A stretch of 64,000 nt of DNA from the NCBI GenBank assembly GCA_023244835.1, contig JAHFLN010000001.1, positions 4,912 through 68,911 on the forward strand, given 5' to 3'. This document shows, one piece after another, positions 33,447 to 46,953 of the stretch. Both the position numbers and the translations under genes were made by a program. Source of the DNA: Candidatus Harrisonbacteria bacterium (lineage in GTDB: Bacteria; Patescibacteriota; Minisyncoccia; UBA6257; UBA11618). Below the pieces are notes generated by a model. That model did not search any database and was not told where the DNA came from. It saw only the letters and a list, made by a program, of their open reading frames with translations. Position 1 is the stretch's first letter; every line of letters begins with the position of its first letter.

Positions 33447-34136
33447 ATGTCTATCTTACACTCAAATCCCACGAAAAAGAGAGGCAGACGAAAGAAAAAG
33501 GCCCTTGCCCTGAAGGATACGGCGCGACGGAAAAGCGACCTGCCCGCGCGTCGCTATATGGGAGCGTATGTCTCTCGCGCGAAACGCGCAGGGCTTTCCC
33601 ATTCACAAGGGAAACCCCCCAAGATCATCCAGCTAAAACCCTCTGTCGCGAAACGGACGGAAATGACGCCGAGTGTCGCTCCCCCGTTCATTCTCTTCCT
33701 CGCAACGGCGGAGGCTCTGCAGCGATCCGGCATCACCATGACGGGAAAAACATCGAAGCAAAAAAGGAGACTTCTTCTTTTGGCTGAATCCGTTTCTGAT
33801 GGCCGGCACCATGCGAAGATCCTTATGCGCGCCGAGCTTGACGAGTTTCTCTGCGTCATCGCCTTCGACGAGGAAAGCTGGACTCCCGAAAAAGACGACG
33901 TTCTGTTCGACTTCGAACTCAAACTCCGCAGATCGTGTGGCCACTGTGTTCATTTCTACGCCAAAGAGGCTGCTATGAATACCGGCGAGGTCATCGCCCG
34001 GATTATTGCCGAACGCTTCAAGAAATACGTTCTCGGCCGTGCCCGGCTTGCGCTCCGTACCGCGGAAATCAGGAATGAGATCAATAGCCTCGTGGCCGAA
34101 GCTATGCAGTTCACTCTTCCGCTCAGCGATAGCTGA
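33447..34136 (+). CDS. Hypothetical basic protein
   Basis: AAAGGAACGG Shine-Dalgarno; TTGACT promoter-like upstream; terminator downstream. Confidence 0.45.
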   Translation: MSILHSNPTKKRGRRKKKALALKDTARRKSDLPARRYMGAYVSRAKRAGLSHSQGKPPKIIQLKPSVAKRTEMTPSVAPPFILFLATAEALQRSGITMTGKTSKQKRRLLLLAESVSDGRHHAKILMRAELDEFLCVIAFDEESWTPEKDDVLFDFELKLRRSCGHCVHFYAKEAAMNTGEVIARIIAERFKKYVLGRARLALRTAEIRNEINSLVAEAMQFTLPLSDS

Positions 34137-35429: not shown

Positions 35430-35547
35430 AGTGCCTTCATACTACCCAAGCCATGATGTCCGTCAATATGGACAAAACGCACTATAATCATCGTAATTAC
35501 GCCTGATTGAACGAATCGGCAGGGCACGATATACTGAACCCGCCGAA

Positions 35548-35635
35548 GGAGGGGTCGCATAGCGGCCTAGTGCACCATCTTGGAAAGGTGGCATACCGAA
35601 AGGTATCGAGGGTTCGAATCCCTCCCCCTCCGCCA
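35548..35635 (+). tRNA. tRNA-Ser (anticodon GGA), class II with long variable arm, CCA encoded
   Basis: Acceptor GGAGGGG/CCCCTCC; anticodon stem CCATC/GGTGG; loop TTGGAAA; T-loop GGTTCGAATCC; TTGAAC-17-TATACT promoter upstream. Confidence 0.85.
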
Positions 35636-35656
35636 GATTGGCAACTTTGAACCAAT

Positions 35657-36430
35657 ATGAATACATGGACTAAAAAGAGTATAGAACTGGCGCGTAAACC
35701 GGGATATTTAGATGCCTTGGGCGCTATTTATGTTATGAATATAAATCCTAGTAGACCACTAACGGAAGAAGTTGAGAAAAAAATACGAGAGGCTTTCCAT
35801 AATAGAAAAAATAAAGAGTTAGTTCATCTGTTAATTCAAAACGAAGTCTTTCCGGTCAAGGATTCTTATGTCGGATTTTTAAGACTTAACCCTGCGGCTA
35901 TTGATCAAAATCCGATAACTATCAATAGAATATCAGAAAGGCTTTACTCATTGGGGATTGAAGCACTTCTTAAGGAGGCAACTCGTCCTAAAGAGACAAA
36001 TCGTCAACTCGGACACTCATTCAAAAAATGGTTGCCTCAATTAGGTTATCCCGTACTTAATGTAGAAGAGTTTGCCAATACTCGAGGTGTGGCCATCCTT
36101 GCCGGTGGGGACGCACAACTTGCAAAATACGCTAGAGAGAAGTTGGGCTGTGAATTATCCAAAGGTATTGATTTTGTTTTAAAGAAAGGAAAGAATCATA
36201 TTATTGGTGAAGCTAAATTTCTTACAACTCCTGGAGGAGAGCAAGATCGAGGTTTTGATGACGCATCAAATTTTATTAAAGGAAAATTGCGCCCAAATGT
36301 GAAAAGAATAGCTGTTTTGGATGGCTATATCTGGGTAGAACGAACTGGTGGGCTCCACAATAAGATCGTGATGAACAACCTTGATATTTTTAGTGCTCTA
36401 CTCCTTCCCGAATATATTAAAAAGTTTTAG
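35657..36430 (+). CDS. Putative type II restriction endonuclease, PD-(D/E)xK-like
   Basis: AT-rich gene beginning 22 bp after the tRNA; candidate GIDFV...IIGEAKF catalytic motif; convergent with and overlapping the methyltransferase stop. Confidence 0.5.
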   Translation: MNTWTKKSIELARKPGYLDALGAIYVMNINPSRPLTEEVEKKIREAFHNRKNKELVHLLIQNEVFPVKDSYVGFLRLNPAAIDQNPITINRISERLYSLGIEALLKEATRPKETNRQLGHSFKKWLPQLGYPVLNVEEFANTRGVAILAGGDAQLAKYAREKLGCELSKGIDFVLKKGKNHIIGEAKFLTTPGGEQDRGFDDASNFIKGKLRPNVKRIAVLDGYIWVERTGGLHNKIVMNNLDIFSALLLPEYIKKF

Positions 36431-38187
36431 GTTGCAGAATAAACCTCAAAAGAAGCTTTTAATTTAGCTCCTTCTTTTTCTATAAGACTAATAGCATTTT
36501 TATTGAGGTCTATTCCTATCCAATTTCTTTTTAGTTCTTCAGCGGCTAGTAGAGTAGTACCCGACCCCGCAAAACAATCCAAAACCAAGTCGTCTTGCGT
36601 TGTAGAGCTCTGAATAATTTGTTTCAATAAGTCTCGATTTTTCTGTGTTGGGTAAAGAGAGCTCTCGAAACCAGGATCTTTAAAGTCCCACACGTCCTGA
36701 AGTTTCTTGCCTCGGTTTTCGTCTGCGTAGATTTTTTTTCGAGGATTCCCTGAACTAGACCACTCAATCAATCCTTCTTTATCTAGGCGTGTTAATTCTT
36801 CAGGGTTATATCTCCAATGCCTTCCTTTCGGTGGGAGCATGCCTTTCCATTCTCTGCCCGTAGGACCATTTCGTGTCTCTCCTTTAGCGTGAAGAGGTGT
36901 GGTGGCATACCTACGCCCTTTTTTGTCAATCTTGGGAAATTGTTTTATGATCTCCTCCTCAGTTAAGGCTATACGATGGTCCGTCCAAGACATTGGGTCA
37001 TGTCCATTTGGTTTTGATTTGGAATAAAAATATATTACATCTTTTATGTTCCCGAAAGCTTTCCTATCGAAATTTTTTGGATTACATTTTATTCTGGTAA
37101 TGTCATTTCTAAAATTTTCCTCTCCGAATACTTCGTCCATTAATACTTTTACATAATGTCCTATTTTCTGATCAATATGGAGGTATATGCTACCTGTTTC
37201 GGAAAGTAATTCTCTAAGAAGGATCAGTCTTTTTCTTAAAAACTCAAGGAAATCTGTGTTTGTAAGTTTGTCGCTATAAAAGTTTTCTTCGTTATAACCA
37301 ACAAAATCTTGCCCTGTACCAAAAGGTGGATCGATATAAATTAATTCGATATTGCCCTTTATATTTTTATTTTCATACAAATTCTTAAGAACACTGAGAT
37401 TGTCGCCTGCAATTAATTTATTTACAGACTTTGATCCATATTTCTTAGTAAGTTTAAGTTGAGCCGCTTTGATTTCAAGAACTTCTTCTTCCTTTATTTT
37501 TCCTCGATAAATCAACTCAGCTCCTCCTTTAGGACGACGTGCATGAGGAATCGTATGAAGAATATTTTCTGCTCTCTCCCTCTCGGAATATCTTTCGTTG
37601 GATTTAATAATATCTATAACTACACCTTGGATAGTTAACCGTTCAGGTTCAATAAAAAGAGGTAGCATTGTTTGGTTCGCAGGCTGTAGCCGTATCCTAT
37701 TTTTCTCCCTAAAAAACTTTTTAAGTGTGGCGGACTCCTGATCAATCAAAGCAACAACTTTTTGACCATTGTGTGCTACCGATTGACTCTGAATCAACAC
37801 AATGTCTCCATCGTTGATATTCTCATCAATCATACTATCGCCATACACACGTAGAGCGTAAACATCACTACTTTTAGGCATTTTCGATTTCGGGATAGCG
37901 ATTGTCTCCTTTTCTTGAATTGCTTCAATTGGCTCGCCTGCAGCAATAGTACCCAGGAGAGGAATGCTTACCAGGGGTTCGCCAGAGGAAATACTTATAG
38001 AACGTGCTTTATTTTCAGATTTATCCAAATATCCACTATCTCGTAGTTTGTTTATATGAAAATGTGCAGTAGAAACAGAGGCAAGTTTAAAATGCCTCTG
38101 TATTTCCTCTAAGGAGGGGGCATACCCTTTCTTTTTGGAAGACTCTTTTACGAAATCGAAGACCTCTTTTTGCTTTTTGGTGAGCAT
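36427..38187 (-). CDS. LexA-like repressor (HTH plus S24 peptidase) fused to beta-class amino-DNA methyltransferase (DPPF ... FAGSGTT)
   Basis: N-terminal ~205 aa align to LexA (IAAGEPI cleavage site, LRVYGDSM Ser, DGDIVLI, NGQKVVALID, TLKKF Lys); C-terminal motif IV IDPPF then motif I DCFAGSGTT. Confidence 0.8.
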   Translation of the reverse strand: MLTKKQKEVFDFVKESSKKKGYAPSLEEIQRHFKLASVSTAHFHINKLRDSGYLDKSENKARSISISSGEPLVSIPLLGTIAAGEPIEAIQEKETIAIPKSKMPKSSDVYALRVYGDSMIDENINDGDIVLIQSQSVAHNGQKVVALIDQESATLKKFFREKNRIRLQPANQTMLPLFIEPERLTIQGVVIDIIKSNERYSERERAENILHTIPHARRPKGGAELIYRGKIKEEEVLEIKAAQLKLTKKYGSKSVNKLIAGDNLSVLKNLYENKNIKGNIELIYIDPPFGTGQDFVGYNEENFYSDKLTNTDFLEFLRKRLILLRELLSETGSIYLHIDQKIGHYVKVLMDEVFGEENFRNDITRIKCNPKNFDRKAFGNIKDVIYFYSKSKPNGHDPMSWTDHRIALTEEEIIKQFPKIDKKGRRYATTPLHAKGETRNGPTGREWKGMLPPKGRHWRYNPEELTRLDKEGLIEWSSSGNPRKKIYADENRGKKLQDVWDFKDPGFESSLYPTQKNRDLLKQIIQSSTTQDDLVLDCFAGSGTTLLAAEELKRNWIGIDLNKNAISLIEKEGAKLKASFEVYSAT

Positions 38188-38242
38188 ATTGATATTATAG
38201 AAAATAAATAGAAAGTATACAAATCAAGTTATCCACAAGGTC

Positions 38243-39238
38243 ATGGCAAAGCATCACATCGTTCAAGACAAATATCTCACTCAATGGAGAAAAAGCGGAA
38301 CAGAAAATCAGCTCAATATTTATGTTATTCATGAAAATCAAATTATAGAAAGAGGACCGGGATGGAAGGGTTTTTGGAGAGATGATTTTAATGTGCTTGA
38401 AGATGACGGTGAAAAGTCCTACCTCCCAGAGGAAGTTACGGTAATTATTGATACAAAGGGTATTGAAGCTGTCAGGAAAATAAATACTACAAGCGAAGAA
38501 TTATTATCAGGTATGGATAGGAGTTGCGTAGCTTTTTATACGGCATTGCAGTACACAAGAACTCCGCGACACAGAGAGGAAACAAACAAATTGATCGAAG
38601 CTACTACCCGACATTTTATGAGAAAAGACCTTCCATCACCAGATAAGGTGCATATGTCCAAAGATAAGATACTCGAGTATAACCCACAGAATAAAATGGA
38701 GGAGGATGCTCTGGATGTGATAAGTAAGATGACGCAAGAGGAAATCAACTCACAGATTTTTAAGGCAATACACGATGATACAGTCAGGATCGGCCTTACA
38801 AAGACAGGCCACTCAAAAGGCATTCTGAAAGTAGATCGTCATGCCGAGAAGATATTTGAAATGCAGTGGCTATTCCTAGTAACTCCTGAGGGTACGTCCT
38901 TCATTACCTCGGATAGCCCTTGTTTTACAATATCCACATCGAAACTGAATGGGCTAATATCGCCTCACTCAACGGTATATTTCCCATTAAGACCAGATAT
39001 ATGTCTTTACATAAAACCGAGCATGAAATCAAAAGCAGAATACTATATGAAGTTAGATAAGGGACAGGTTAGGGATATAAATTCACTGATACTCTCAAAC
39101 AGTACCCAATGTGCAGTTGCCAAGGACAAAATACATTTAGAGAAACTGACCAAGAACTTCGATTACAAAAACCACAGAAAGTCACGCGTTATATCTATTA
39201 GCGAATCGGGGCCATACACAATGTTTACCGCAGAATAG
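38243..39238 (+). CDS. DUF4238-like protein
   Basis: N-terminal KHHIVQDKYLTQW matching the DUF4238 HhxPQxYL motif; AT-rich; adjacent to R-M pair. Confidence 0.5.
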   Translation: MAKHHIVQDKYLTQWRKSGTENQLNIYVIHENQIIERGPGWKGFWRDDFNVLEDDGEKSYLPEEVTVIIDTKGIEAVRKINTTSEELLSGMDRSCVAFYTALQYTRTPRHREETNKLIEATTRHFMRKDLPSPDKVHMSKDKILEYNPQNKMEEDALDVISKMTQEEINSQIFKAIHDDTVRIGLTKTGHSKGILKVDRHAEKIFEMQWLFLVTPEGTSFITSDSPCFTISTSKLNGLISPHSTVYFPLRPDICLYIKPSMKSKAEYYMKLDKGQVRDINSLILSNSTQCAVAKDKIHLEKLTKNFDYKNHRKSRVISISESGPYTMFTAE

Positions 39239-39479
39239 TAAATTAACCTGAGTAGCCTGTATATTTTAGGCTAGACAGAATAATCAACTGCATTTTGCCC
39301 TATATCTGACTTTGGCTTCGGTACTTCAAACCATTCAGGGTGGACTTTGTAGATAACCCTTAGTTTCTGTATACTTTTATCAAGATCCTCGAATTTGAGC
39401 CGTACTTTTGGTTCAAAGTTACGGGCATCGTCCCCGCCTAATGCAAAAGAGATGGCCTTGCGCCATCCCCTTTTGCATT

Positions 39480-45966: not shown

Positions 45967-46263
45967 TTACGACTCAAGGATCGCGAGGATATCCGCCTCG
46001 TCGGCAACCAAATACTTCTTGCCGTCAAGCTCGACCTCGTCCGGCCCGTATTTCTTGAAAAGCACGAGGTCTCCCACCTTCACGGACATCGGATTCAGCT
46101 CCCCTCGGTCATTCCGCTTGCCCGCGCCGACCGCGAGCACGCGCCCCTTTACCGGCCGTTCTTTTTCCGCTGTATCCGGCAGGACGATGCCTGATTTCGT
46201 CATGCGGTCTTCTTCCATGGCATCGAGAAACACGCGATCAGCAATGGGTTTTATGGTCATCAT
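45967..46263 (-). CDS. groS: Co-chaperonin GroES (as the C-terminal 98 aa of a 328 aa ORF)
   Basis: MMTIKPIADRVFLD...GKRNDRGELNPMSVKVGDLVLF typical GroES; no stop separates it from the upstream nucleotidyltransferase-fold region. Confidence 0.85.
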   Translation of the reverse strand: MMTIKPIADRVFLDAMEEDRMTKSGIVLPDTAEKERPVKGRVLAVGAGKRNDRGELNPMSVKVGDLVLFKKYGPDEVELDGKKYLVADEADILAILES

Positions 46264-46953
46264 AGTACCTAGGAGTATATCCTGTTTTTTCCCATGGTCA
46301 AGAGCGCGAACGCTTTCTCCCGGCGCTTTTTTCGGACGGAAGCACAGCTCGACGCGGCTTTCCGAAACGCTGATGCGCGATTCGCTTGACGCGCCGAATC
46401 GAATGCTCTGCGCCGCGATCCGGCGCTCCTGAATACGCCTCATGAGCGCTTCGCCCCAGGCGCCGAATGCGAAATCGAAGAGCGTCTCCGCGCACGCGAC
46501 AAGCGGGATCTTCTCCTTCCTATAGCGATATCTCACATTCGCGAATATCCCCTCGCGCATCGCCCCTGATGCCGTAAGGAATTCCCCAATCGCCTCCCGC
46601 GTTCCCACGACGGGCACGAGCGACGCGGCGAGGGCCCGTGCATACGCGTCCTCCGGCGCGTCGAGGCGGGCATCCGTCGCTATAAAATGATTCAGGCAAA
46701 AGCCTCTGCCGCGCGCGGCGATATGCGTACGGAGTCCGAGCAAACGGAAAATCCCCAAACAGAAAAAACGCGCCGTATACATACGGCCCGGCCGCGTTCC
46801 GACGATCACATCCCAGTCGGAATTCCTATGGGCATCGCCTGTCGCGAGCGATCCCGACACGAGCACTAAGTCGACGAAGGGGATCCACTCGAAGATCCAG
46901 ACCTTCCCGAGCAGGCCGTGCCATGCGTGGTCGAAAATTCCTTTTTGGTCCAT
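46264..46953 (-). CDS. Nucleotidyltransferase-fold domain ORF continuous in-frame with groES
   Basis: Pol-beta-type motif LVSGSLATGDAHRNSDWDVIV (G[GS]-x9-13-DxD); ATG at 46953 three nt after the rmuC stop. Confidence 0.5.

What the first reader, a model, noticed from the sequence alone, without database searches (positions are those of the whole stretch)
36427..38187. Complete LexA-type repressor fused in-frame to a DNA methyltransferase
The first ~205 residues contain every LexA hallmark: a winged-HTH, an Ala-Gly cleavage site in IAAGEPI, Ser-nucleophile context LRVYGDSM, DGDIVLI, NGQKVVALID and Lys in TLKKF. The rest is a beta-class amino-methyltransferase with motif IV IDPPF before motif I DCFAGSGTT. 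Known R-M controllers are small C-proteins or short N-terminal HTH domains. A full autoproteolytic LexA fused to the methyltransferase would (inference) couple operator binding or autoregulation of the R-M promoter region at 38188-38242 to RecA-stimulated self-cleavage, linking restriction-modification to the SOS response. I do not recognise this architecture as a described one.
Basis: partly seen in the sequence, partly recalled or inferred. Interest (0 to 1): 0.85.

Follow-up and report, generated by a model that had tools for sequence, protein, structure and literature searches.

The report
Self-cleaving LexA repressor fused to restriction-modification methylase
A bacterial DNA-protecting methylase carries a complete DNA-damage-sensing LexA repressor at its front end, and this design recurs across many unrelated restriction-modification systems of uncultured bacteria, which suggests that these systems tune self-protection to DNA damage.

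Summary
ORF 36427-38187 (-) encodes 586 aa: a full LexA (wHTH plus S24 peptidase; NCBIfam lexA equivalog 184 bits against a cutoff of 111), a ~25-aa linker, and a complete beta-class N6_N4 DNA methyltransferase. A Tsp45I-family restriction enzyme gene is convergent and overlaps it by 4 bp. The identical protein is encoded on six independently assembled contigs, so it is not a frameshift artefact.

It is also not a one-off. More than 55 clusters share the exact architecture. A LexA-based metagenome scan found about 50 further loci where the same LexA head is fused to other DNA methyltransferases (beta, alpha/D12, gamma/Eco57I-TaqI, C5), paired with at least 10 Type II REase families. The Ala-Gly cleavage site, Ser118 and Lys156 are invariant in all 82 aligned fusions.

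The promoter carries a conserved direct-repeat operator (TTTCTAT-N4-TTTCTAT, 38197-38214) whose half-site co-varies with the recognition helix. A perfect DnaA box (38229-38237) lies next to it. Both motifs are absent from MTase-only relatives.

The best reading is an autorepressed methylase gene that is derepressed by self-cleavage on DNA damage or ssDNA, a Type II counterpart of restriction alleviation. Cleavage, RecA dependence and the fate of the methylase fragment are untested. I found no description in the searchable literature.

The parts
35548..35635 (+). tRNA-Ser(GGA). The R-M cassette abuts its 3' end. A sigma70-like promoter (TTGAAC-17-TATACT, 35507-35535) precedes it.
   Evidence: ARAGORN; promoter scan. 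Homology with the sister cassette L004 starts at 35615, inside the tRNA 3' end.
35643..35655 (.). Left arm of a perfect 13-bp terminal inverted repeat (AACTTTGAACCAA) that brackets the low-GC cassette.
   Evidence: the repeat finder I6, 100% complementary with 39408-39420. The same 13-mer sits at the equivalent border of L139 and, with one mismatch, in L004. GC drops from ~0.58 to ~0.38 here.
35657..36430 (+). Type II restriction endonuclease, Tsp45I family, 257 aa. It is convergent with the methylase gene and overlaps its 3' end by 4 bp. There is no C-protein gene and no obvious promoter of its own; only 21 bp separate it from the tRNA.
   Evidence: Pfam PF06300 Tsp45I 232 bits; PADLOC REase_II PDLC03495 170.6 bits; sequence 35480-35720.
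36427..38187 (-). LexA-methyltransferase fusion gene, 586 aa.
38002..38187 (-). LexA winged-HTH DNA-binding domain (residues 1-62). Recognition helix S-V-S-T-A-H-F-H.
   Evidence: PF01726 62.2 bits; co-variation of the H-x-H residue with the operator half-site.
37936..37941 (-). Ala83-Gly84 self-cleavage site (GTIAA^GEP). The new C-terminus would be ...IAA.
   Evidence: Aligned to E. coli LexA VAA^GEP; invariant in A1 and A3.
37615..37962 (-). Peptidase S24 catalytic and dimerisation domain (residues 76-191), with Ser118 (37834-37836) and Lys156 (37720-37722).
   Evidence: PF00717 98.2 bits; Ser and Lys invariant in 82 fusions.
37525..37599 (-). Variable ~25-residue linker (residues 197-221) between the LexA head and the start of the methyltransferase homology.
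   Evidence: MTase-only relatives align from residue ~222 onwards. Low conservation in A1 and low pLDDT.
36430..37524 (-). Complete beta-class N6_N4 DNA methyltransferase (residues 222-586). Motif IV DPPF is at 286-289 and motif I FAGSGTT at 539-545.
   Evidence: PF01555 174.6 bits, profile positions 1-221 of 221; PADLOC MTase_II PDLC03354 491.6 bits over residues 222-575.
38197..38214 (-). Putative LexA operator: direct repeat TTTCTAT-ttat-TTTCTAT with an 11-bp period. It overlaps the -10 element.
   Evidence: A strict version of the motif is present upstream of 41/53 fusion genes, against 10 hits elsewhere in 335 kb and 0/74 MTase-only loci. Half-site co-varies with the recognition helix. 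Direct-repeat LexA boxes are known (PMC8565304).
38194..38222 (-). Methylase promoter as read from the sequence: -35 TTGTAT (38217-38222), 17-nt spacer, -10 TATAAT (38194-38199). The -10 ends 6 nt before the ATG, so the mRNA is probably leaderless.
   Evidence: Direct reading of the sequence. The same layout (-10 at 6-8 nt from the ATG) is seen in 7 loci. It was not picked up by the consensus scan because the -35 matches only 3 of 6 positions.
38229..38237 (-). Perfect DnaA-box 9-mer (TGTGGATAA = TTATCCACA), just upstream of the -35.
   Evidence: 31 of 39 perfect boxes in 335 kb of fusion loci lie within 150 bp upstream of the fusion start: 30/53 loci, or 40/53 allowing one mismatch. Only 1/74 MTase-only loci has one.
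38243..39238 (+). Divergent DUF4238 gene (331 aa), 55 bp from the methylase start. Its promoter must overlap the operator region. Candidate: -35 TTGCTT 38170-38175, -10 TATTAT 38193-38198. This is inference.
   Evidence: PF14022 95.4 bits; no PADLOC hit. Conserved next to the fusion only in L004.
39408..39420 (.). Right arm of the 13-bp terminal inverted repeat (TTGGTTCAAAGTT), at the end of the low-GC cassette.

Best explanation
The gene encodes the modification enzyme of a mobile Type II restriction-modification cassette (Tsp45I-family REase plus beta-class, probably N6-adenine, MTase) carried by a Patescibacteria (CPR) host. Its N-terminus is a complete, catalytically intact LexA.

Proposed mechanism:
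1. The protein dimerises through the S24 domain. Its winged HTH binds the direct-repeat operator TTTCTAT-N4-TTTCTAT, which overlaps the -10 of its own, probably leaderless, promoter. The methylase therefore represses its own synthesis, as SsoII-type HTH-methylases do. On entry into a naive cell the promoter is free, so methylase is made first.
2. When RecA-ssDNA filaments form (DNA damage, stalled forks, double-strand breaks made by self-restriction, or imported ssDNA), the LexA head cleaves itself at Ala83-Gly84. The DNA-binding domain, whose new C-terminus ...IAA resembles a ClpX degron, separates from the dimerisation domain. Operator occupancy falls and transcription of the methylase gene rises, probably together with the divergent DUF4238 gene.
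3. The net effect is more methylase relative to restriction enzyme while unmodified sites are being created by repair or recombination. This would be a Type II analogue of damage-induced restriction alleviation, and a negative feedback loop on self-restriction. Read-through of the derepressed M transcript into the convergent, overlapping R gene may also lower R expression.

What is shown and what is inferred:
- Shown here: the architecture, its recurrence, the conservation of the catalytic and cleavage residues, the operator and its co-variation with the recognition helix, and the R-M context.
- Inferred: DNA binding, self-cleavage, RecA dependence, the direction of the effect on methylation, and any role of DnaA at the adjacent DnaA box.
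For: - The architecture is real and is reproduced in independent assemblies.
- The same fusion occurs in 55 or more clusters at 54-95% identity.
- A83, G84, S118 and K156 are invariant in 35 same-family fusions and in 47 fusions to other MTases.
- The LexA head is found on beta, D12, C5 and gamma (Eco57I/TaqI) DNA MTases, and on nothing else sampled.
- About 42 of the top ~85 50%-identity representatives are long fusions, whereas hits below ~47% identity are ordinary ~200-aa LexA.
- The downstream gene is a convergent Type II REase in ~40/48 loci, drawn from at least 10 REase families.
- A direct-repeat operator lies in the promoter spacer or -10 in 41/53 loci, against 10 hits elsewhere in 335 kb and 0/74 MTase-only sister loci.
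- Half-site and recognition helix co-vary: Phe goes with TA 47:0 and Gln/Glu with GG 27:0. Stand-alone LexAs of the lineage follow the same pattern.
- Direct-repeat LexA boxes with the same 11-bp period are established (GTTC-N7-GTTC; PMC8565304).
- Autorepression by HTH domains fused N-terminally to MTases is established (PMC3874152).
- An engineered C-terminal fusion to E. coli LexA (LexA-Halo) is still cleaved after UV (bioRxiv 10.1101/2020.07.07.191791).
- The rationale for protecting unmodified sites made during repair or recombination is the one accepted for Type I restriction alleviation (PMC3874165).
Against: - There is no experimental evidence for binding, cleavage or RecA dependence.
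- After cleavage the methylase stays attached to the S24 domain. In E. coli ClpXP and Lon degrade the LexA 85-202 fragment, so the methylase could be destroyed rather than boosted. The sign of the effect on methylation is unknown.
- The -35 of the window's promoter is weak (3 of 6), and the consensus scan did not call the promoter.
- Terminator-like hairpins in the R/M overlap are no more frequent than in shuffled sequence, so transcriptional interference with R is speculative.
- The co-variation statistic is not corrected for phylogeny.
- No recA or host lexA lies in the 64-kb window, so the presence of RecA in this genome is assumed from general knowledge of Patescibacteria.
- GTSAC is not depleted in the host DNA (69 observed, 73 expected), so neither the specificity nor the activity of the system is verified.
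- The AlphaFold model was too poor (pLDDT 64.9) to say anything about domain arrangement.
Confidence: 0.5

Rival explanations
1. Damage-triggered loss of protection (suicide or abortive-infection switch). Self-cleavage exposes degrons, ClpXP/Lon degrade the S24-methylase fragment, methylation lapses, and the stable REase cuts the chromosome. Damaged or phage-infected cells are killed.
For: In E. coli, cleavage exposes signals that lead Lon and ClpXP to degrade both LexA fragments, including residues 85-202 to which the methylase would be attached. R-M systems behave as toxin-antitoxin-like addiction modules in which the methylase is the antitoxin (PMC3874152). The upstream neighbours of related cassettes are often abortive-infection or defence genes: ThsB-TIR, SAVED, AbiJ.
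Against: Cleavage at the same time derepresses the methylase gene, so synthesis rises. In the LexA-Halo experiment the folded C-terminal passenger survived degradation of the LexA part. A design that kills the host after any DNA damage would be costly for a chromosomal cassette, yet the fusion is retained across very many lineages. No evidence here addresses the stability of the fragment.
Confidence: 0.15
2. A RecA-independent module for autorepression and lability. The LexA head serves as a dimeric operator-binding domain, and its slow constitutive self-cleavage simply makes the methylase short-lived (antitoxin-like). This would sharpen homeostasis or post-segregational killing without any link to SOS.
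For: The LexA-like protein IrvR autocleaves constitutively and independently of RecA (PMC7101444). HTH-methylase autorepression works without any protease in SsoII-type systems. Sister methylases of the same family use a plain HTH_17 head instead (P0058-P0077), so the essential function of the head may be only operator binding.
Against: The head scores as a bona fide LexA equivalog, not merely as an S24 repressor. It is 43-49% identical to stand-alone LexAs recovered in the same scan, and these carry the same operator architecture. IrvR is described as the only known RecA-independent exception. Strict invariance of the whole cleavage-site loop, G-x-I-A-A-G-x-P, is what is expected for a RecA*-responsive LexA.
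Confidence: 0.15
3. The fusion is the cell's actual SOS master regulator: the only LexA of a reduced CPR genome, which happens to carry a methylase. It would control recA, uvr and other SOS genes genome-wide.
For: It passes the curated lexA equivalog threshold, and NCBI names such proteins 'transcriptional repressor LexA'. Patescibacteria have small genomes, and no other lexA lies in the window.
Against: The gene lies in a 3.8-kb low-GC cassette (0.30-0.44 against ~0.52-0.62 in the flanks) bounded by inverted repeats at a tRNA, and it is shared at 76% DNA identity with a different genome. That makes it accessory and mobile. The strict operator pattern matches at only two places in the 64-kb window: here and at 33900, inside an unrelated ORF. 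Fused heads form a clade distinct from the ~200-aa LexAs, and their half-sites differ between cassettes, which fits private operators.
Confidence: 0.07
4. Assembly or annotation artefact: two adjacent genes (lexA and an MTase) joined by a sequencing error.
For: Two related loci (L095, L136) show the LexA part and the MTase part in different frames.
Against: The identical ORF is present in 6 independent assemblies. There are 55 or more full-length homologues plus ~50 fusions to other MTases, all in frame. There is no stop codon, and the coding sequence runs continuously through the linker.
Confidence: 0.01

Closest known systems
SsoII/Ecl18kI/EcoRII/MspI-type methyltransferases with an N-terminal HTH that autorepress their own gene
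   Same: A DNA-binding domain is fused N-terminally to the Type II methyltransferase, and its operator overlaps the methylase promoter. The methylase (the antitoxin) therefore limits its own synthesis (PMC3874152). Sister enzymes of this very MTase family carry such a short HTH_17 head. Overlapping divergent promoters, as in Ecl18kI, also appear to be present here (reading).
   Different: Here the head is a ~196-residue full LexA with an intact S24 autoprotease and cleavage site, so repression should be reversible by a signal. R is convergent rather than divergent, so the operator cannot directly activate R. The operator is a direct repeat, and a DnaA box accompanies it.
Canonical LexA / SOS repressor (TIGR00498; E. 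coli LexA, T. maritima LexA 3K2Z)
   Same: Same domain order, cleavage site, Ser/Lys dyad and autoregulatory operator in its own promoter. It scores above the equivalog cutoff. The direct-repeat operator has the same 11-bp period as the alphaproteobacterial GTTC-N7-GTTC box, and one related locus (L129) has exactly GTTC-N7-GTTC.
   Different: It is not a ~200-aa stand-alone protein but carries a 365-residue enzyme at its C-terminus. It is encoded on a mobile R-M cassette. There is no evidence that it controls an SOS regulon. The fused heads form their own clade.
Damage-induced restriction alleviation of Type I R-M systems (ClpXP degradation of HsdR)
   Same: The proposed purpose is the same: lower the restriction-to-modification ratio while repair or recombination creates unmodified chromosomal sites (PMC3874165).
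   Different: [quoted passage not shown] 111). Here the sensor would be built into the M protein of Type II systems and would act on M transcription.
DpnA of the pneumococcal DpnII system (competence-induced ssDNA methylase)
   Same: It is a precedent for a Type II system that raises a methylase specifically when ssDNA enters the cell, so that incoming DNA is protected (PMC3573125). RecA-ssDNA would provide the equivalent signal here.
   Different: DpnA is a separate second methylase under a competence promoter. There is no fused repressor and no proteolysis.
C-protein (controller) regulated R-M systems
   Same: Both are dedicated transcription factors that time R against M. In 17 of 36 related LexA-M loci a 68-89-aa HTH_3 gene sits immediately upstream of R, so both layers can coexist.
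   Different: C proteins are small, separate, non-cleavable XRE-type proteins that mainly control R. The window's cassette has none.

Membership tests
LexA repressor (TIGR00498 / Pfam LexA_DNA_bind + Peptidase_S24) | N-terminal LexA-type winged-HTH DNA-binding domain | tested here: met
   PF01726 residues 2-62, 62.2 bits against a cutoff of 23.7.
LexA repressor (TIGR00498 / Pfam LexA_DNA_bind + Peptidase_S24) | C-terminal S24 peptidase domain with Ser nucleophile and Lys general base | tested here: met
   PF00717 residues 76-191, 98.2 bits. S118 and K156 align to E. coli S119 and K156 and are invariant in 82 fusions.
LexA repressor (TIGR00498 / Pfam LexA_DNA_bind + Peptidase_S24) | Ala-Gly self-cleavage site in the inter-domain loop | tested here: met
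   IAA^GEP aligns to E. coli VAA^GEP. A83 and G84 are invariant.
LexA repressor (TIGR00498 / Pfam LexA_DNA_bind + Peptidase_S24) | Whole-protein score above the curated equivalog threshold | tested here: met
   184.1 bits against 110.95, residues 2-196 covering profile positions 4-201 of 203.
LexA repressor (TIGR00498 / Pfam LexA_DNA_bind + Peptidase_S24) | Binds an operator in its own promoter (autoregulation) | tested here: inconclusive
   There is a conserved direct repeat over the -10 in 41/53 loci, and it co-varies with the recognition helix.
LexA repressor (TIGR00498 / Pfam LexA_DNA_bind + Peptidase_S24) | RecA*-stimulated self-cleavage | not testable with these tools
   Needs biochemistry. 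A RecA-independent exception exists (IrvR).
LexA repressor (TIGR00498 / Pfam LexA_DNA_bind + Peptidase_S24) | Controls a multi-gene SOS regulon (recA, uvr, etc.) | tested here: inconclusive
   The strict operator pattern matches at two places in 64 kb: the M promoter (38197/38198) and 33900, inside an unrelated ORF. No recA lies in the window. The whole genome is not available.
LexA repressor (TIGR00498 / Pfam LexA_DNA_bind + Peptidase_S24) | Stand-alone protein of about 200 residues | tested here: not met
   586 aa, with 365 residues of methyltransferase after the S24 domain.
Beta-class N6/N4 DNA methyltransferase of a Type II R-M system | Full-length match to PF01555, with motif IV (D/S-P-P-Y/F) N-terminal to motif I (FxGxG) | tested here: met
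   PF01555 profile positions 1-221 of 221, 174.6 bits. DPPF at residues 286-289 and FAGSGTT at 539-545. PADLOC MTase_II 491.6 bits.
Beta-class N6/N4 DNA methyltransferase of a Type II R-M system | Adjacent cognate restriction endonuclease | tested here: met
   Tsp45I-family REase at 35657-36430, 232 bits. The same pairing is seen in L004, L005, L006, L084 and L086.
Beta-class N6/N4 DNA methyltransferase of a Type II R-M system | Methylates a defined site (expected GTSAC if the specificity is that of Tsp45I) | not testable with these tools
   GTSAC is not depleted in the host DNA (69 against 73 expected), which is uninformative. A methylome or enzyme assay is needed.
SsoII-type autoregulatory HTH-methyltransferases | DNA-binding domain fused N-terminally to the MTase, with an operator at the M promoter | tested here: met
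   (the operator is inferred from conservation).
SsoII-type autoregulatory HTH-methyltransferases | The head is a short simple HTH (about 70 aa) without a signal-responsive domain | tested here: not met
   The head is a 196-aa LexA with an S24 protease. Sister MTases P0058-P0077 do have a plain HTH_17 head.
SsoII-type autoregulatory HTH-methyltransferases | Divergent R and M genes that share the regulated intergenic region | tested here: not met
   R is convergent with M and overlaps its 3' end by 4 bp. The convergent layout is seen in ~40/48 related loci.
C-protein controlled R-M system | Small HTH controller gene upstream of, and co-oriented with, R | tested here: not met
   None in the window: R starts 21 bp after the tRNA. 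One is present in 17/36 related loci.

The most novel reading that the evidence does not exclude
The LexA head, together with its promoter, direct-repeat operator and DnaA box, is a portable sensor-regulator cassette. Patescibacteria, Omnitrophota and neighbouring uncultured lineages attach it to the methyltransferase of Type II R-M systems of every MTase class and of at least ten REase families.

It would give Type II systems a built-in RecA*/ssDNA input, and possibly a DnaA/replication input, that raises the M:R ratio during damage, recombination, DNA uptake or self-restriction. That is a hitherto unknown Type II equivalent of restriction alleviation. Each cassette would have its own private operator, encoded by one or two recognition-helix residues.
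Probability: 0.4. Interest if true: 0.85.

Novelty: new variant of a known kind. Interest (0 to 1): 0.78.

Why it matters
**The open question it addresses.** How Type II restriction-modification systems avoid killing their own host is a long-standing question. Repair, recombination or DNA uptake all create unmodified sites. Type I systems have ClpXP-mediated restriction alleviation, but no general equivalent is known for Type II.

**What it would add.** A methylase with a built-in, self-cleaving DNA-damage sensor would be such a mechanism. It would link the SOS signal (RecA*) directly to epigenetic self-protection.

**How common it is.** The design recurs in hundreds of metagenomic loci, across all DNA-MTase classes and many REase families. 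That implies strong, repeated selection and a modular 'plug-in' regulator, in lineages (CPR) where R-M systems are thought to be a main defence. That last point is from my own knowledge, not a source checked here.

**Practical uses.**
- The helix-to-half-site correspondence (Phe with TA, Gln/Glu with GG, Lys with GC) offers a ready-made set of orthogonal LexA-operator pairs for synthetic biology.
- Genome annotation currently labels these proteins as the cell's LexA, which will mislead reconstructions of the SOS regulon in CPR genomes.

Tried and rejected
None is present in 38188-38242 apart from a trivial GTATAC. The conserved element is a direct repeat.
- **Structure prediction of the whole fusion from the 35-sequence alignment.** Mean pLDDT was 64.9 and pTM 0.50, and the S24 region scored below 50. 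This is too poor for fold searches or domain-packing conclusions, so I did not pursue it. Loci-derived sequences cannot be submitted to deepen the alignment.
- **Phage and plasmid reference collections.** No fusion was found. There were only MTase-only hits, plus one phage (Marinitoga MPV1) with adjacent but separate MTase and CI-like repressor genes. IMG/VR gave 5 LexA-related loci, only 2 of them fusions. I therefore dropped the idea that the head is a prophage CI repressor.
- **GTSAC avoidance as a proxy for REase activity or specificity.** There is no depletion, so the test is uninformative.
- **Terminator and promoter consensus scans.** Counts were not above those in shuffled sequence, and neither divergent promoter was called because of weak -35 elements. 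The promoter assignments rest on my reading of the sequence and on cross-locus conservation.
- **recA or a second lexA in the window.** None found.
- **Literature.** Seven full-text searches, four of them aimed at the fusion itself, found no description of a natural LexA-MTase fusion. The Patescibacteria SOS paper (PMID 28618189) is not held, so I could not check whether it mentions these fusions or the direct-repeat box.
- **DUF4238 as a known defence protein.** No PADLOC hit.
- **Direct repeat of the tRNA 3' end at the far border of the island (a classical att duplication).** I did not see one. A 13-bp inverted repeat is there instead.

Full report
**1. The observation**

The domain evidence is as follows.

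- Pfam places LexA_DNA_bind at residues 2-62 (62 bits) and Peptidase_S24 at 76-191 (98 bits). N6_N4_Mtase matches end to end at 280-571 (175 bits).
- The curated NCBIfam lexA equivalog model scores 184.1 bits over residues 2-196, against a trusted cutoff of 110.95.
- Against solved structures, the head matches T. maritima LexA (3K2Z, E=4.6e-35) and E. coli LexA.
- In that alignment IAAGEP lies on VAAGEP (the Ala84-Gly85 scissile bond), GDSM on GMSM (Ser119) and TLKKF on TVKRL (Lys156).
- Motif IV (DPPF, 286-289) precedes motif I (FAGSGTT, 539-545), which is the beta-class order.
- MTase-only relatives and the PADLOC Type II MTase model align from residue ~222.

The protein is therefore LexA (1-196), a ~25-residue variable linker, and a complete methyltransferase (222-586).

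**2. Not an artefact, and not unique**

The identical protein is called on six contigs from independent ENA and Logan assemblies, including a 289-kb contig. A search of 5.8 billion proteins returned 55 or more clusters of 578-612 aa at 54-95% identity with the same three Pfam domains. Their sources name them 'transcriptional repressor LexA' (Paceibacterota, Parcubacteria and Omnitrophota MAGs) or 'adenine-specific DNA-methyltransferase'. In an alignment of 35 of them, Ala83, Gly84, Ser118 and Lys156 are invariant. The next-closest methylases (63-70% identical in the MTase part) carry a short HTH_17 domain instead of LexA. That is the classical arrangement for autoregulatory methylases.

**3. 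The architecture is modular**

I scanned metagenome contigs with an alignment of only the S24 C-terminal part and the linker. This returned 80 loci.

- In most of them the LexA head (53-69% identical to ours) continues in frame into a 440-624-aa protein. The ~200-aa stand-alone LexAs were the more distant hits, at 43-49% identity.
- All 47 complete long proteins have LexA_DNA_bind and Peptidase_S24. Forty-four have N6_N4_Mtase, some hit the D12 (Dam-like) family at 2e-32, and one is a C5-cytosine methylase at 1e-93. The cleavage site and the Ser/Lys dyad are again invariant.
- In the 50%-identity representative library, about 42 of the top ~85 hits to the head alone are 390-890 aa long with LexA at residues 1-198.
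- Ten of the longest are all LexA plus a DNA methyltransferase, including gamma-class N6_Mtase/Eco57I/TaqI_C enzymes and C5 enzymes. I saw no fusion to anything other than a DNA methyltransferase.
- The gene downstream of the fusion is convergent and abuts or overlaps its 3' end in about 40 of 48 loci.
- These downstream genes are Type II restriction enzymes from at least ten families: TaqI 12, EndoVII/His-Me 6, Tsp45I 4, BglII 4, MvaI/BcnI 3, and MutH-like, BsaWI, HNH, DpnII and BanI.
- In 17 of 36 loci a 68-89-aa HTH_3 protein is encoded immediately upstream of R on the same strand. This is a C-R operon. The window's cassette has none.

**4. The regulatory region**

I aligned the 100 bp upstream of 54 fusion genes by eye and then counted motifs.

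(i) A direct repeat with an 11-bp period.
- Its form is [T/G/C]TTC[T/G][A/G]T-N4-[T/G]TTC[T/G][A/G]T. It usually lies between a TTGAC-like -35 and a TATAAT -10.
- A strict pattern is present within 120 bp of the start in 41/53 loci. It gives 10 hits elsewhere in 335 kb and occurs in 0/74 MTase-only sister loci.
- In the window it is TTTCTAT-ttat-TTTCTAT at 38197-38214, and the second half-site overlaps the -10 TATAAT (38194-38199).
- The -10 ends 6 nt before the ATG, so the transcript is probably leaderless. Seven loci share this layout.
- Some loci have TTTC-N7-GTTC, and L129 has GTTC-N7-GTTC. The latter is the alphaproteobacterial LexA box, the textbook example of a direct-repeat LexA motif (PMC8565304).
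- The half-site co-varies with the residue between the two histidines of the recognition helix (S-V-S-T-A-H-x-H): Phe with TA (47:0), Gln/Glu with GG (27:0), Tyr mostly with GA, and Lys with GC. Fisher's test for the first two classes gives 8.5e-21, not corrected for phylogeny.
- Stand-alone lexA genes from the same scan have analogous direct repeats in their promoter spacers and fit the same pattern.

I therefore take the repeat to be the operator of the fused LexA.

(ii) A perfect DnaA-box 9-mer (TGTGGATAA = TTATCCACA).
- It lies 5-20 bp upstream of the repeat, in either orientation.
- Thirty-one of the 39 perfect boxes in these loci fall within 150 bp upstream of the fusion start: 30/53 loci, or 40/53 allowing one mismatch. 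About 0.004 per locus would be expected. Only 1/74 MTase-only loci has one.
- In the window it is at 38229-38237.

(iii) GTCAA 8-19 nt upstream of the ATG in 31/54 loci, against a background of 0.05. This is the reverse complement of a TTGAC -35. Together with the palindromic ATTATAAT -10 seen in several loci, it suggests overlapping divergent promoters. The window lacks this element, but a candidate + strand promoter for DUF4238 (TTGCTT 38170-38175, TATTAT 38193-38198) would start transcription inside the operator. This is my reading of the sequence, not a tool result.

**5. Context**

- The cassette is a low-GC island: 0.30-0.44, against about 0.52-0.62 in the flanks.
- It begins 8 bp after tRNA-Ser(GGA) (35548-35635) and is bracketed by a perfect 13-bp inverted repeat, 35643-35655 and 39408-39420.
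- Homology to the sister cassette in a Paceibacterota MAG (L004, whose fusion protein is 87% identical) runs from 35615 to 39465 at 76% DNA identity. It includes only the last ~20 nt of the tRNA, and L004 has that fragment but no intact tRNA.
- In L120 and L156 the R gene also lies directly downstream of, and co-oriented with, a tRNA gene.
- The host is a Patescibacteria bacterium. Its GroEL is 85% identical to a 'Candidatus Pacebacteria' GroEL and 70-73% identical to those of Wolfebacteria and Harrisonbacteria.
- The divergent upstream neighbours of related cassettes are heterogeneous but often defence-like: ThsB-TIR x2, SAVED, AbiJ, GmrSD_N, Schlafen/AlbA_2. DUF4238 occurs only in the window and L004.
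- The cassettes are rare in viral contigs (2 fusions among 5 hits) and absent from the phage and plasmid reference sets.

**6. How it most likely works**

Shown:
- The architecture, its recurrence and its modularity.
- Purifying selection on the cleavage machinery.
- A conserved operator over the -10 that co-varies with the recognition helix.
- A Type II R-M context with a convergent R gene.

Established elsewhere:
- N-terminal HTH domains on methylases repress the methylase promoter (PMC3874152).
- LexA dimers can bind direct repeats.
- An engineered C-terminal fusion to E. coli LexA is still cleaved after UV. ClpXP and Lon then degrade LexA 85-202 while the folded passenger survives (bioRxiv 10.1101/2020.07.07.191791).
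- DNA damage alleviates Type I restriction, presumably to protect unmodified sites created during repair or recombination (PMC3874165).
- The DpnII system raises a methylase (DpnA) when ssDNA is imported (PMC3573125).

Inferred:
- The fusion autorepresses its gene.
- RecA-ssDNA triggers cleavage at Ala83-Gly84.
- The wHTH fragment (new C-terminus ...IAA) is lost, and M transcription rises. The same probably holds for the divergent gene.
- The M:R ratio rises while the chromosome is vulnerable. This also gives negative feedback on self-restriction, because REase-made breaks generate RecA*.
- DnaA may add a replication-coupled input.

The main uncertainty is the fate of the S24-methylase fragment. 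If it is degraded as a unit, the outcome is the opposite (loss of protection). That is the chief rival, along with a RecA-independent 'labile autorepressor' reading modelled on IrvR (PMC7101444).

**7. Comparison with what is known, and novelty**

It works like an SsoII-type autoregulatory methylase, but the simple HTH is replaced by a signal-cleavable LexA. It passes every sequence-level test for LexA membership except being a stand-alone protein. Its regulon and its RecA dependence could not be tested. It is not a C-protein system, although C proteins coexist with it in about half of the related loci.

Seven full-text searches, four of them aimed at the fusion itself, found no description of natural LexA-methyltransferase fusions. 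The one paper most likely to mention them, on the SOS network of Patescibacteria (PMID 28618189), is not held.

I rate it a new variant of a known kind: fused-repressor control of methylase genes, here with a damage-responsive, self-cleaving repressor. It is widespread and apparently overlooked.

**8. Verdict**

- The mechanism is plausible but not tested experimentally.
- Interest is 0.78.

Noticed in passing
window 38229-38237; also upstream of the fusion gene in L004, L084, L088, L089, L093, L102, L106-L109, L112 and others: A perfect DnaA-box consensus (TTATCCACA / TGTGGATAA, usually extended to TGTGGATAAC) accompanies the LexA operator in 30/53 fusion loci, or 40/53 allowing one mismatch. 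Only 1/74 MTase-only loci has one. It suggests DnaA input into methylase expression, or another factor with the same site. I know of no report of a DnaA box at R-M promoters.
   Followed up: partly
window 35643-35655 and 39408-39420; L139:147; L004:7534: A perfect 13-bp terminal inverted repeat (AACTTTGAACCAA) brackets the 3.8-kb low-GC R-M cassette, which contains no integrase or transposase. The same 13-mer marks cassette borders in other loci, and the cassette carries a ~20-nt tRNA-Ser 3' fragment. The mobility mechanism is unknown.
   Followed up: partly
window 35548-35657; L120 5821-5979; L156 5513-5613: The R gene starts 21 bp after a co-oriented tRNA gene, with no promoter or Shine-Dalgarno sequence visible. 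The same tRNA-then-R layout is seen in L120 (tRNA-Ser GGA) and L156 (tRNA-Asn). R may be transcribed by read-through from the tRNA promoter.
   Followed up: no
L089:5826-6041, L144:5874-6077, L005:7595-7861, L006:5196-5417 and 13 other loci: In 17 of 36 related cassettes, a 68-89-aa HTH_3 (XRE) protein is encoded immediately upstream of R. This is a C-R operon convergent with the LexA-M gene, so two regulators coexist. Two sequence classes occur (…ERGERRIDVAELKELAKIYKK…YF and …IERAEKNxTLExIEKIAKALKISIAEFF).
   Followed up: partly
8-19 nt upstream of the fusion ATG in 31/54 loci (for example L090, L093, L098, L102, L108); absent in the window: A conserved (A)AGTCAA(G) lies just upstream of the start codon, against a background of 0.05 per 45 nt. 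It is the reverse complement of a TTGACT -35. It suggests a divergent promoter that overlaps the methylase promoter face to face, as in Ecl18kI-type promoter competition.
   Followed up: partly
window 38243-39238 (+); upstream neighbours in L004-L163: The gene divergent from the fusion is DUF4238 here and in L004. Elsewhere it is ThsB-TIR, SAVED, AbiJ_NTD4, GmrSD_N, Schlafen/AlbA_2, trypsin-like, DUF4209 or helicases. These neighbours may be passenger defence genes sharing the LexA-controlled bidirectional region.
   Followed up: partly
whole window outside 35641-39421: GGTCC is the most under-represented 5-mer in the host DNA (O/E 0.36; GGACC 0.60). This hints at long-term exposure to a GGWCC-specific (AvaII-like) restriction system. 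GTSAC, the Tsp45I site, is not depleted.
   Followed up: no
L095 2153-3688; L136 3668-5132: Two related loci have the LexA part and the MTase part in different reading frames. They are either decaying fusions or sequencing errors.
   Followed up: no
window 45967-46953 (-): The ORF immediately upstream of groEL is 328 aa and carries a Cpn10 (GroES) domain according to the precomputed Pfam hits. That is about three times the normal GroES length.
   Followed up: no
OZ018341.1 (Marinitoga phage MPV1) 39924-41465: A phage has a DNA methyltransferase gene directly adjacent to a CI-like (S24) repressor gene. It is a possible unfused analogue of the arrangement.
   Followed up: no
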